A stretch of DNA of 64,000 nt from contig NC_085841.1 of the NCBI RefSeq assembly GCF_035594765.1, positions 331,771,402 to 331,835,401 on the forward strand. Direction: 5' to 3'. The position numbers are program-made. This document shows positions 47,974 to 51,100 of this stretch, one piece after another (the stretch's first letter is position 1; each line of letters starts with the position of its first letter). The stretch comes from Anolis carolinensis. Its lineage: Eukaryota.

Positions 47974-48030
<57 letters not shown>

Positions 48031-48150
48031 TATAATTATAATGACAATGGGCCAGTTAACTCTTTGAGAACTAAATACAGGGGTGTTATGATGTTGAAGA
48101 CTCAGTTCTTCTACCTTGAAGTTATTGGAGGAAAGGCTAAATTAGTTGTT

Positions 48151-48189
<39 letters not shown>

Positions 48190-51100
48190 TATTATTATTA
48201 ACAACAACTAATTTAGCCTTTCCTCCAATAACTTCAAGGTAGAAGAACTGAGTCTTCAACATCATAACACCCCTGTATTTAGTTCTCAAAGAGTTAACTG
48301 GCCCATTGTCATCCACACTGCTCTTAGGAGTAGTATCTGGGACATTAGGATGAGTGGCTGGTGTTTAAGTAGAGGATCTATGCCCTCCACTCTCCTGAAC
48401 ACAACAACAGGTCTACCAATATAAACAGAAAAAACAAGAGCAGCCCCTCCCCAGTATATACAGCAGAGACTCACATCTATAACCACATCATGGCACTTGT
48501 ATTTTACAGCCAGGTTCAGTTTCATCTCTATGTCTTCCACTAGGCGCACATATTCCTGTAGAACCTATATGAGGAGGAAAGGAAGTATCAGCAGAACAGA
48601 ACTACCAAAGGTTAGGATTCCTCTTCCATGCTCCTTAGCTCATATGTAAATCATTCTGCCTAGCCTTGGCAAAATGATTTTATGAAGGTCTCCCTTCATA
48701 AAATCAACAACCAAATAGCCCATTCAAAGGTAAATTCGATCAAACAACTGTCATTGTTTGGAAAGCAAGTGAAACCAAATGAACTCTCTTTTCCTATGCC
48801 CAATGAATGACAACAAACGTATACTTTGTACATTGTAGTGTTGAGTTAAATGACTACTGCCCAATAAACATTTCCAGAGGCAGGCTACTATTACTTTATA
48901 ATGGGGAAGCTTTCCTACTCACCTGCACCGGAGCATTGTTTCGCTGTAAGATCTCCACCACCCGGTGGAAACCAATAGGAGCTCTTTTTTTGGTGTAACC
49001 CAGCCAGTTCTGAAATCAGAGTAAAAAAAATCCTATTAACATTTGACCTTGAAAAAGAGTCATCCTAAATATGTTTGGGGAGGGGAAACATATGTTTAGT
49101 ATGTGGTGGATCCAAAATAAGAAGATAGGCATGGAACAATTTTCCCTAGTTCCCAATGCATTGCACAAAAGTAGGAACCTCAATGAATGAAAGAACCAGA
49201 ACATAAAAGTTTAATAAAAAGCCAAATTATTTATATATGCTCATGAGCCTATGAAAGCCACCACTTGGTCCAAGTTCAGAGAAAGCCACTCCAACTCACC
49301 TTAGTGGTGAACAAAGCATCCACATCATGCCAAGCTCGCAGTTTGGCACGAGCCGCCAGGGCTGTCAACACAAACTGTTTGTCTGGAATCTGCAAGGCAG
49401 AAAAATCAAACTCCTAAACTACAGAACAGTAGAAGCTATATGGTTGTGCCCCACCAACTGATACTGATCAATGTCCAGTGGGCCACCTAGAACATTTTGG
49501 TTGCTAGGAGTCTTTTAAAAACTTTGACTAGGAGAATCCCTTAGTCTGTTCCAGGAGGCTTTTATTACATTGAAAAAACACATAGTCTGAAATATTTGAT
49601 TTACATTATAAAAATTTTAAGAGATCCTGAGTGTAGGACATTCTCAAAAGTATAACAACCCCATGGGAATTTAATGGAAATCAGAATCAACAGTAGAAGT
49701 AGCAAACCATGCAGGACTGTAGCCTAATCCAAAAGATCAGGACACAGACTTCTAACACCCCCCATTCAACAGACATGGCTGTGTTGGACTAGGCAGAGTT
49801 CGCTTGTCTAAGAAGCATGGTCATAATCAGATACCTCTAGAATCAGGCTGAACATGGTCTCAAACTCATTAAATTGGTTCCATCCATTTTGGAATGAAAA
49901 ATGAACATCATGTAACAATTTAAATGTCATAATTTACACGAAACATTGGCTAATATGCACATTTTAGTTCCAATGCTGGTGCATGAAGCCAGATTTCATA
50001 CACCCAAAACTTTCACAATGAACAGGCATCTACCCTATCTAGATCAACCTGCACAATCCAGATCATTAGCAAAGAGAAACATACCATAACAAAATGAATA
50101 GCCCCAAATGATCTAAGTCAGAGAGCCAAGTTACCTACTACGGGACAATGCAACTATGGTCTCCAAACTTAATGAACCCCTTCCCACCACATCTTTTTGA
50201 AGAAAAACTAGGAGAAACTACATCATAGCTACAGCTGCTGCAATTTCAAAGCAAAACAGCATAATATCCCAGCTGAATATCAGGAGGCCCCAAGGATAAT
50301 TTATCATCAAAGACTTTTTGTGGCTTAGGGCAACTTCAAGCAGCAAATGATCTTGAGACTTAAGCTACAAGTAGTCTTCATTAACGAACTTTAATTCCAC
50401 ACCCAGTTTTTCCATTCTGAATGGATGGAATTCAGCTCTCAAGAACTACTCAATTTGGAAATTTGCTTTGGTCAAAACTTAGTCCATATCTCTAGCTTAG
50501 AACTCTGGCTGCCCCACAGGGCTTTTTTGAATACTTGCAGCCAAGCCTCTCAGGACATTAGATCAACGTTCATATCAATGTTCATGGTTTGAGTGCAACA
50601 CCAACCATGATTTGACATTAGAACAACTAGCTTGTGTGAACCTCAGGTCAGAAGTCAACCATTTCCTTCTGCCTGCAGATTTTATGAAGTTGACTTGTTA
50701 CTGACTCACTTCTAATGTGCATATATCTAGCAGCATTACTGTCTCGTAGAACACATCCTTAGCAAACTTCGGATTACTTACCTTAAAGGTTTTCTTCAAG
50801 TTTGCAGGACTACTGAAGGTGCCCTGGGAAAGCAAGACATGGTAAAGTTAATGAAGGAGATCGGCCTGGGGGGGAAGAGGGTGAGCAGAGAATGGAGATG
50901 ATTTTCTAATATGAAGATTTCGGTCTACTTCTAGCTCTGTTTTGTTCCTCATTATCATTATTTTATGTCTTCAAAATCTAGTTTCCTCACAAACTTTCCA
51001 CAACTAAGTTTGTGTCAACTTTTCTTCAGTTACATGCATTATTTACTTAAACAGTTTTAGATATACGTAGACATACAAATAAAACCAAATTAATCTGCAT

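What the first reader, a model, noticed from the sequence alone, without database searches (positions are those of the whole stretch)
47976..48312. Perfect 125-bp-arm palindrome at the 5' junction of an R4/Dong-type retrotransposon, inside a VIPAS39 intron
Seen in sequence: 48041-48165 and 48188-48312 are exact reverse complements around a (TAA)n loop, and a second (TAA)n tract links the left arm to the truncated 5' end of the element. On the plus strand the element's outer flanks read roughly (TTA)n, but 47976-48187 reads (TAA)n, so this block looks like an inverted copy of the adjacent flank. Inference: fold-back or template switching onto flanking DNA during target-primed reverse transcription, primed through the microsatellite. 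The arms show zero mismatches although the element itself has several frameshifts, which suggests a later origin, arm-to-arm gene conversion, or an assembly artefact. The VIPAS39 pre-mRNA would carry a 125-bp perfect dsRNA stem ~160 nt downstream of the donor at 48475 (possible ADAR, Dicer or splicing substrate; possible cruciform fragility in DNA).
Basis: partly seen in the sequence, partly recalled or inferred. Interest (0 to 1): 0.65.

Follow-up and report, generated by a model that had tools for sequence, protein, structure and literature searches.

The report
Perfect hairpin beside a lizard retrotransposon
A 125-base stretch of a lizard gene's intron sits next to a flawless mirror-image copy of itself, right at the broken front end of an old jumping gene; this most likely records a copying enzyme doubling back on nearby DNA, a slip already seen in laboratory experiments.

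Summary
Bases 48041-48165 and 48188-48312 are exact reverse complements (125 of 125) around a 22-nt (AAT)n loop. It is the longest inverted repeat in the window and the only perfect one.

The context claims also hold. The element at 46261-47974 (minus strand) is a 5'-truncated, decayed RT + CCHC + restriction-like-endonuclease element next to (TAA)n-type repeats. The host gene is VIPAS39/SPE-39 of a squamate, not human, and the hairpin lies in its last intron, 162 nt past the donor.

Best reading: a snap-back inverted duplication seeded in the AAT/ATT microsatellite at the element's 5' junction. This junction class is documented for R2 proteins (PMC11371274) and L1 (PMC11702581).

Timing is unresolved:
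- The repeat polarity flips exactly at the element's truncated end, which ties the block to the insertion.
- Zero arm mismatches against 4 frameshifts and 1 stop in the element argue for a later origin or arm homogenisation (p 0.0003-0.012).

The (TAA)22 tract at 47975-48040 has no counterpart in the flank and stays unexplained. Assembly artefact, a dispersed repeat and the empty site could not be tested, because no eukaryote genome collection was available. This is a new member of a known kind, of modest interest.

The parts
44298..44408 (-). Last coding exon of VIPAS39 (SPE-39 homologue)
   Evidence: tblastn of 5 named squamate SPE-39 proteins, 81-91% identity
44409..48474 (-). Last intron of VIPAS39. 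It holds the retrotransposon fragment and the palindrome.
   Evidence: Lies between the exon matches. Donor GTGAGT read at 48474-48469 on the minus strand.
46232..46260 (-). Decayed (AAT)n-type microsatellite at the 3' junction of the element, in element sense. About 10 units: 7 TAA-like and 2 TTA when read in the TAA phase.
   Evidence: Read. It aligns with the ATT polarity on the plus strand (25 of 31), but that score is within the shuffle range.
46261..47974 (-). 5'-truncated, decayed RT element of R4/Dong type. RT region 47642-47938; CCHC finger about 46851-46928; restriction-like-endonuclease region about 46355-46700; stop codon 46352-46354 lies inside the span, followed by about 90 nt of 3' UTR.
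   Evidence: Pfam RVT_1 E 1.8e-08; zf-RVT 23.1 bits, below the 27.5 cut-off. 1219 homologues. Frameshift-aware alignment to P0001: 381 of 476 identical, 4 frameshifts (46965, 46748, 46570, 46451), 1 stop (47038), and in-frame deletions. Nearest solved structures are R2 proteins, E 5.2e-07.
47975..48040 (+). (TAA)22 tract on the plus strand, the opposite polarity to the element's 3' junction. It links the truncated 5' end to the left arm. Its origin is unexplained.
   Evidence: TRF 47975-48042, 22.7 copies, 93%; sequence
48041..48165 (+). Left arm of the palindrome (unique part 48041-48153, then four AAT units)
   Evidence: Exact reverse complement of 48188-48312
48166..48187 (+). Loop: 22 nt of (AAT)n
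48188..48312 (+). Right arm of the palindrome (four ATT units, then unique part 48200-48312). It continues into unique intron sequence.
   Evidence: No microsatellite follows at 48313.
48313..48474 (-). 162 nt of unique intron between the right arm and the splice donor
48475..48564 (-). Penultimate coding exon of VIPAS39 (30 codons). Acceptor AG at 48566-48565 after a pyrimidine tract.
   Evidence: (named SPE-39 proteins, up to 93% identity over the exon)

Best explanation
This is a real local inverted duplication. About 113 nt of intron sequence, plus part of the adjoining AAT/ATT microsatellite, was copied in reverse orientation at the 5' (reciprocal) junction of a (TAA)n-targeting R4/Dong-type retrotransposon.

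Proposed course of events (inferred):
1. The element's endonuclease nicked the microsatellite.
2. The ATT-type 3' end on the plus strand primed cDNA synthesis, which stopped inside the RT region at 47974.
3. Before the 5' junction was sealed, a free 3' end snapped back within the repeat and copied nearby target DNA of the opposite strand up to position 48312/48041. That end was either the cDNA end or the upstream target end, which finishes in (AAT)n.
4. The ends were then joined.

Shown: the structure, the polarity flip exactly at the truncated 5' end, and the element's identity and decay. Inferred: the enzyme, the order of steps, and which arm is the template.

The arms are identical either because hairpin-mediated correction homogenises them, or because some of the element's lesions were inherited from its source copy and the whole insertion is young.

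A variant is not excluded. The RT may first have jumped to a second RNA ending in (AUU)n, whose tail would be the (TAA)22 tract, and the cDNA then snapped back on itself. In that case both arms are retro-copied sequence and not flank.
For: - Exact 125-nt arms with a repeat loop.
- In element sense the order is: upstream flank, arm, (AAT)4, (ATT)12, inverted arm, (ATT)22, truncated element, decayed (AAT)10, downstream flank. The inverted block fills exactly the space between the truncated 5' end and the flank, and the repeat polarity changes at the element's first base.
- The arm is unrelated to the element's own sequence, so this is not a twin-priming inversion of element RNA.
- No target-site duplication and no other copy in the window, which speaks against an independent transposon.
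- Precedent, passages read. [quoted passage not shown] For L1, three insertions with inversions of genomic DNA at the reciprocal end, three with sequence templated from nearby genomic DNA, and local inverted duplications listed among target-site rearrangements (PMC11702581).
- Dong-type elements target (TAA)n (PMC7998251).
Against: - The arms have 0 differences in 125 nt, which puts the per-arm divergence below 1.2% at the 95% limit. The element carries 4 frameshifts, 1 stop and in-frame deletions in 1434 nt. Under assumed indel:substitution ratios of 0.08-0.2, a common age without homogenisation is disfavoured (p 0.0003-0.012).
- The other non-microsatellite inverted repeats listed for the same window are 77-88% complementary.
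- The (TAA)22 tract at 47975-48040 is not explained by copying the flank, because nothing like it follows 48312.
- The 3' junction repeat is decayed, whereas the two tracts around the left arm are 93-100% pure.
- There is no empty site, no second example and no read-level support.
Confidence: 0.4

Rival explanations
1. A later event that did not add an element. Long after the insertion, a break, a stalled fork or an abortive nick by another (TAA)n-specific element in the 5'-flanking microsatellite was repaired by fold-back priming or template switching. That duplicated the adjacent flank in inverted orientation.
For: Zero mismatches in the arms against a decayed element. The repeat tracts around the left arm are pure or nearly pure, whereas the 3' junction tract is decayed. 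Fold-back priming at breaks is an established route to inverted duplications (PMC10622511 and PMC11724301, search listings and abstract starts only).
Against: It needs the whole original (AAT)n tract next to the element to have been removed or replaced, so that the opposite polarity now abuts the element's first base. A break inside the tract should leave some units of the original polarity beside the element. The (TAA)22 tract is not explained here either.
Confidence: 0.27
2. Assembly artefact. One arm does not exist in the genome and was created when reads were joined or polished across the AAT/ATT microsatellite.
For: Arm identity is perfect. Both ends of the extra arm lie in low-complexity repeats, where assemblers and aligners fail most often. 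No read data could be examined.
Against: The left arm is bounded by (TAA)22 on its outer side, whereas the right arm is bounded by unique sequence. A simple reverse-complemented read therefore cannot produce it, and two separate chimeric joins would be needed. The window has no N and resolves several 15-22-unit trinucleotide tracts. I take that to suggest long accurate reads that would span 337 nt; that step is inference.
Confidence: 0.12
3. An independent hairpin-shaped mobile element (a MITE or foldback type), or two copies of a short microsatellite-tailed retroposon, that happened to land beside the R4 fragment.
For: The genome carries MITE-like hairpins with about 21-nt loops (12378-12504 and 60603-60737). 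It also carries retroposon ends with (ATT)n tails in both orientations (60436-60504 / 61749-61817). The left arm is flanked by trinucleotide repeats on both sides, as an insert into a microsatellite would be.
Against: No target-site duplication: the outer flanks differ and their similarity is within the shuffle range. Only the two arms occur in 64 kb. Translated searches of arm plus flank gave no true relative: one search gave 2 weak hits that are tandem-repeat translations, and one search gave none. Both are weak tests for non-coding DNA. The known hairpin elements here are 83-86% complementary, not 100%. Two independent retro-copies would not share the same 5' end and be identical, and a uniform microsatellite dictates a single insertion orientation.
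Confidence: 0.08

Closest known systems
Snap-back 5' junctions of R2-protein-mediated insertions (PRINT experiments with avian R2 proteins in human cells; PMC11371274, passages read)
   Same: Both involve a LINE enzyme of the restriction-like-endonuclease group. In both, the sequence next to the inserted element's 5' end maps to the opposite strand of nearby target DNA or of the cDNA, which the paper interprets as the cDNA 3' end priming extra DNA-templated synthesis before the 5' junction forms.
   Different: Those are experimental rDNA insertions read as junction reads. This is a fixed natural insertion of an R4/Dong-type element in a microsatellite within a lizard intron, with a 125-nt perfect arm, an unexplained (TAA)22 linker, and evidence that the arms are younger than the element or homogenised.
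Local rearrangements at the reciprocal end of L1 insertions (PMC11702581, passages read)
   Same: Inversions of genomic DNA at the reciprocal end (3 insertions) and sequence templated from nearby genomic DNA (3 insertions), with inverted duplications of the target site attributed to processing of the endonuclease-made ends.
   Different: The enzyme is an L1 with an APE-type endonuclease, in human cell clones. No microsatellite seeding was involved. I did not see the sizes or exact structures, which are in supplementary figures of a preprint and were not available.
L1 twin priming (5' inversion)
   Same: An inverted segment lies at the 5' side of a 5'-truncated LINE insertion, made by a second priming event at the other target end.
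   Different: In twin priming the inverted segment is element RNA. Here the arm has no similarity to the element.
Fold-back priming at double-strand breaks giving inverted duplications (PMC10622511, PMC11724301; search listings and abstract starts only)
   Same: A resected 3' end folds back on short self-complementarity and copies its own strand.
   Different: The reported products are either very short (about 5-34 bp, per the abstract of PMC11724301) or chromosome-scale. Here it is a 125-nt local duplication beside a retrotransposon.
Dong of Bombyx mori and R4/Dong clade elements (PMC7998251, PMC3774820, passages read)
   Same: RT followed by a restriction-like endonuclease, and insertion into (TAA)n repeats.
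   Different: This copy lacks the 5' half, so the Myb-like domain and the 5' ribozyme cannot be checked. Clade placement by RT phylogeny was not done.

Membership tests
R4/Dong clade non-LTR retrotransposon | Reverse transcriptase domain | tested here: met
   Pfam RVT_1 E 1.8e-08, 34.8 bits against a 29.6 cut-off. 1219 RT homologues.
R4/Dong clade non-LTR retrotransposon | CCHC finger and restriction-like endonuclease downstream of the RT (PMC7998251: RT and REL-endonuclease domains) | tested here: inconclusive
   zf-RVT scores 23.1 bits, below the 27.5 cut-off. A CX2CX8HX3-4C motif and a PD..D..K-like stretch were read by eye, and the motif pattern itself is recalled. No profile for the endonuclease matched. 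The nearest solved structures are R2 proteins, but only over the RT.
R4/Dong clade non-LTR retrotransposon | Insertion into (TAA)n repeats (Dong) or rDNA (R4) | tested here: met
   A decayed (AAT)10 follows the 3' end in element sense. (TTA)4 lies next to the right arm on the plus strand. The target rule is from PMC7998251.
R4/Dong clade non-LTR retrotransposon | RT phylogeny placing it inside the R4 clade | not tested
   No named R4, Dong or outgroup reference sequences were on hand. All close hits are unnamed or labelled 'uncharacterized'.
R4/Dong clade non-LTR retrotransposon | N-terminal Myb/SANT-like domain and 5' HDV-like ribozyme | not testable with these tools
   The copy is truncated inside the RT at 47974.
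Snap-back 5' junction (PMC11371274) | Sequence adjacent to the element's 5' end maps to the opposite strand of nearby target DNA or of the cDNA | tested here: met
   48041-48165 is the exact reverse complement of 48188-48312. It is separated from the 5' end by the (TAA)22 tract.
Snap-back 5' junction (PMC11371274) | Made during the insertion event itself | tested here: inconclusive
   The polarity flip at the element's first base speaks for it. The age contrast speaks against it unless the arms are homogenised.
L1-type twin-priming inversion | Inverted segment derives from the element's own RNA | tested here: not met
   No similarity between the arm and any part of the element. Against the 3' UTR the score was 20, with a shuffle mean of 22.
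MITE / foldback DNA transposon | Target-site duplication flanking the inverted repeats | tested here: not met
   The outer flanks differ: an A/T repeat on the left and unique sequence on the right. No similarity above the shuffle range.
MITE / foldback DNA transposon | Many dispersed copies in the genome | not testable with these tools
   Only the two arms occur in the 64-kb window. No eukaryote genome collection was available. The translated searches found no relative.
microRNA precursor | Match to a curated family above its gathering score | tested here: not met
   Only mir-7 at 25 bits against a 51.8 gathering score, symmetric on both strands.

The most novel reading that the evidence does not exclude
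The inverted arm was reverse-transcribed from the host's own nascent VIPAS39 pre-mRNA. The intron RNA carries the arm followed by (AAU)n, which mimics the (UAA)n tail that a Dong-type enzyme uses. The upstream target end would have primed on this local transcript, a form of twin priming on a host RNA, and written a piece of the intron back next to itself in reverse. If so, microsatellite-targeting LINEs would be a source of perfect intronic hairpins, which are raw material for hairpin-RNA genes. The product is identical in sequence to a DNA snap-back, so nothing here excludes or supports it specifically.
Probability: 0.06. Interest if true: 0.6.

Novelty: new member of a known kind. Interest (0 to 1): 0.3.

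Why it matters
If real, this is a natural, fixed example of a junction class known mainly from cell-culture experiments: snap-back or inverted target copying at the 5' end of a LINE insertion. Here it involves a microsatellite-specific R4/Dong-type element in a reptile.

It shows how such events can plant a long perfect hairpin inside a gene's intron, 162 nt from a splice donor. There the hairpin could be a substrate for RNA editing, dicing or cruciform-related fragility.

The contrast between flawless arms and a decayed element bears on whether short palindromes are kept identical by hairpin-templated correction. As a single locus without read or comparative support, its weight is limited.

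Tried and rejected
- **Arm as the element's 3' UTR or another part of the element:** no similarity.
- **Target-site duplication around the element or the palindrome:** only low-complexity similarity, within the shuffle range (observed scores 24 and 32; shuffle maximum 33). An apparent shared motif of alternating AAT/TAT units on both sides, seen by eye, was dropped for this reason.
- **Orthologous intron sequence through unspliced ORFs in the protein collection:** ten unnamed ORFs share the exon but diverge within about 10-20 residues of intron and stop well short of the arm.
- **Translated searches of arm plus flank for dispersed or orthologous copies:**
  - One search returned 2 hits at E up to 0.001. 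Both are translations of unrelated tandem repeats.
  - One search found no candidate.
  - Both are weak tests for non-coding DNA.
- **Rfam scan of 45500-48700:** only a sub-threshold mir-7 match on both strands.
- **Pfam on the 30-residue exon:** no hit. The gene was identified by homology instead.
- **Tail-to-tail twin priming of a short (TAA)n-tailed RNA:** rejected on geometry. Priming from both target ends puts the tails outside, whereas here they are in the centre.
- **Not attempted, because they cannot bear on a lizard intron:**
  - The bacterial and archaeal genome collection.
  - The phage, plasmid and E. coli collections.
- the metagenome and viral contig collections.
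Full report
**1. The observation**

- The sequence at 47700-48700 and a direct comparison show that 48041-48165 is the exact reverse complement of 48188-48312 (125 of 125).
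- The repeat finder extends the pair to 134 nt at 98%. The only mismatches are A:A positions every third base inside the central repeat.
- Each arm has about 113 nt of unique sequence (48041-48153 and 48200-48312) plus four trinucleotide units. The loop is 22 nt of (AAT)n (48166-48187).
- Tandem Repeats Finder gives two tracts. The first is 47975-48042 (22.7 copies, 93%). The second is 48153-48189 (12.3 copies, 100%).
- Complementarity ends abruptly outside the arms.
- As a single strand the region folds into the full 125-bp stem. RNA gives -220.9 kcal/mol (z -31.7) and DNA gives -148.8 kcal/mol (z -34.9), and none of 100 shuffles did as well in either case.
- Of 29 inverted-repeat pairs found in the window (25 listed) this is the longest and the only perfect one.
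  - The other non-microsatellite pairs listed are 77-88% complementary.
  - Two of them, 12378-12504 and 60603-60737, look like copies of one hairpin element with 21-nt loops.
- The unique arm occurs only twice in the 64 kb.

**2. The surroundings**

*The element*
- On the minus strand an open frame runs from 47974 leftwards. It carries Pfam RVT_1 (E 1.8e-08). It is followed by a frame with a CCHC-type finger (zf-RVT, 23.1 bits, below the 27.5 cut-off).
- A homology search returned 1219 proteins at E up to 0.001.
  - The best hit is 79% identical and labelled Centruroides sculpturatus.
  - Named lizard hits follow: Phrynocephalus forsythii 72% and Hemicordylus capensis 58-63%.
- A frameshift-aware alignment to that best hit (P0001, 481 aa) covers 47788-46355 and reaches the homologue's last residue, with 381 of 476 residues identical.
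  - It needs four frameshifts (46965, 46748, 46570, 46451).
  - It contains one in-frame stop (47038).
  - It has codon deletions at 47240, 46967 and 46453.
- Upstream, other homologues align back to 47968 and show that the copy is cut off between RT motifs.
- The C-terminal part has a PD..D..K-like stretch that I read by eye; the motif pattern is recalled.
- The nearest solved structures are R2 retrotransposon proteins (E 5.2e-07, RT region only).
- After the stop codon (46352-46354) and about 90 nt of 3' UTR comes a decayed run of about ten AAT-type units in element sense (46260-46232).
- Papers state that R4/Dong elements combine an RT with a REL-endonuclease and insert into rDNA or microsatellites, with (TAA)n as the Dong target (PMC7998251, passages). 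They also state that Dong is flanked upstream by TAA repeats (PMC3774820, passages). R4-clade elements are reported in the anole lizard (PMC5753468, passage).
- The label 'R4/Dong-type' therefore fits. Clade placement by phylogeny was not done, and the 5' features cannot be checked in a truncated copy.

*The host gene*
- The 30-codon exon 48475-48564 (minus), sent with 13 codons of read-through to reach the tool's minimum length, matches named spermatogenesis-defective protein 39 (SPE-39 = VIPAS39) proteins of snakes (93%), lizards (83-90%), turtles, crocodiles and birds.
- Five named squamate proteins were compared with the window by tblastn. Each maps 16-17 match segments in order on the minus strand, from 63633 to 44298.
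- The exons were handled one by one. A joined spliced model was not built or searched, and that step was left out.
- The palindrome and the element lie in the last intron (44409-48474).
- The donor reads GTGAGT at 48474. The hairpin begins 162 nt downstream of the exon in the transcript.
- The window is not human. The gene's closest named relatives are squamates, and the intron carries an R4-type element.

**3. Anatomy in element sense**

Reading the minus strand, the order is:
1. unique intron;
2. arm;
3. (AAT)4;
4. (ATT)12;
5. inverted arm;
6. (ATT)22;
7. truncated element;
8. decayed (AAT)10;
9. downstream intron.

Three points follow.
- **Polarity.** A simple insertion into a microsatellite must leave the same repeat polarity on both sides. 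Here the polarity is reversed from the element's first base up to the centre of the palindrome. The inverted block therefore exactly fills the gap between the truncated 5' end and the flank.
- **Extent of the inverse copy.** Only the arm plus four repeat units has a demonstrable inverse partner. The (ATT)22 tract next to the element, which is (TAA)22 on the plus strand, has no counterpart beyond 48312, where unique sequence begins.
- **Not element sequence, no duplication.** The arm is unrelated to the element's own sequence or 3' UTR. No target-site duplication stands out above low-complexity background.

**4. Relative age**
- Zero differences in 125 paired positions put the divergence of each arm below 1.2% at the 95% limit.
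- The element's lesions suggest about 1.5-4% under assumed indel:substitution ratios of 0.08-0.2 and about 4% of substitutions creating stops.
- A common age without homogenisation is disfavoured, with likelihood-ratio p between 0.0003 and 0.012 across the nine parameter combinations tried.
- These rates are assumptions of mine. Some lesions may also have been inherited from a defective source copy.
- The two repeat tracts around the left arm are 93-100% pure, while the 3' junction tract is decayed. Slippage can keep tracts pure, so this is weak support.

**5. Mechanism**

The closest documented phenomena are these.
- **R2-group proteins.** A 5' junction class called 'snap-back' was seen when R2-group proteins insert transgenes. 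[quoted passage not shown] - **L1.**
  - Three insertions had inversions of genomic DNA at the reciprocal end.
  - Three more carried sequence templated from nearby genomic DNA.
  - Inverted duplications are listed among target-site rearrangements (PMC11702581, passages; its supplementary figures were not seen).

The structure here meets the defining sequence feature of that class. I therefore take a snap-back in the AAT/ATT repeat at the 5' junction as the best explanation (0.40). The identical arms are then explained by hairpin-templated correction or by a younger insertion than the lesions suggest.

A sub-variant would explain the (TAA)22 linker. The RT would jump to a second RNA ending in (AUU)n, and the cDNA would then snap back on itself. 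This genome does carry (ATT)n-tailed retroposon ends (60436-60504 and 61749-61817). In that variant the arm should be a dispersed repeat, and the upstream target repeat must have been lost.

**6. Rivals**
- **Later fold-back repair or template switch in the flanking microsatellite (0.27).** It fits the age contrast, but it has to remove every unit of the original polarity next to the element.
- **Assembly artefact (0.12).** It cannot be excluded without reads. It would need two chimeric joins, because the outer flanks of the two arms differ.
- **Independent hairpin transposon or paired retroposon ends (0.08).**
  - There is no target-site duplication and no other copy in the window.
  - The translated searches found no relative.
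  - Arm identity is perfect, whereas local hairpin elements are 83-86% complementary.

The remaining probability is unassigned.

**7. What stayed unchecked**
As a result, genome-wide copy number of the arm, the empty site in relatives, and other 5' junctions of this family could not be examined.
- Effects on the VIPAS39 transcript (editing, dicing, splicing) are inference only. Rfam gave just a sub-threshold mir-7 match on both strands (25 bits against a 51.8 gathering score).

**8. Verdict**

The feature is real in this sequence and correctly described. Its context is correctly identified. Its mechanism plausibly belongs to a known class of aberrant LINE 5' junctions, but the timing relative to the insertion is unresolved. 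It is a new member of a known kind, and interest is modest (0.3).

Noticed in passing
window 46355-47788 (minus) versus P0001: The closest protein to this lizard element is labelled as a scorpion protein (Centruroides sculpturatus). It is 79-80% identical and full length to the C-terminus, closer than any named squamate hit (72% and below). This could be horizontal transfer of an R4-type element between arthropods and squamates, or contamination or mislabelling of that record.
   Followed up: partly
window 60431-60504 and 61749-61817: Two long pure trinucleotide tracts of opposite polarity, (AAT)19 and (TTA)15, each abut similar short sequences. These look like the 3' ends of one (ATT)n-tailed retroposon family in opposite orientations. 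They bracket two VIPAS39 exons (61205-61342 and 60913-60993).
   Followed up: partly
window 12378-12504 and 60603-60737: Two copies of what looks like one MITE-like hairpin element: arms of 53-57 nt, 83-86% complementary, 21-nt loop. Further inverted repeats lie at 30539-30672 and 25626-26179.
   Followed up: no
window 33832-34032 (+) and 13736-13960 (-): Weak matches to the same RT protein family (27-41% identity, E 1e-04 to 1e-06). These are probably older fragments of related retrotransposons.
   Followed up: no
window 45680-46105 (minus sense): In the same intron, just downstream of the element, lies a GC-richer block that I recall as resembling a squamate SINE, next to an A run of about 15. 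The resemblance is recalled, not tested. The Rfam scan of 45500-48700 gave no tRNA-like match.
   Followed up: no
proteins P0121-P0131: The protein collection holds unspliced ORFs from unnamed contigs that read from the VIPAS39 exon into the intron. They share the exon and a few residues past the donor and then diverge. Such ORFs can serve as a proxy for orthologous intron DNA only very near exons.
   Followed up: yes
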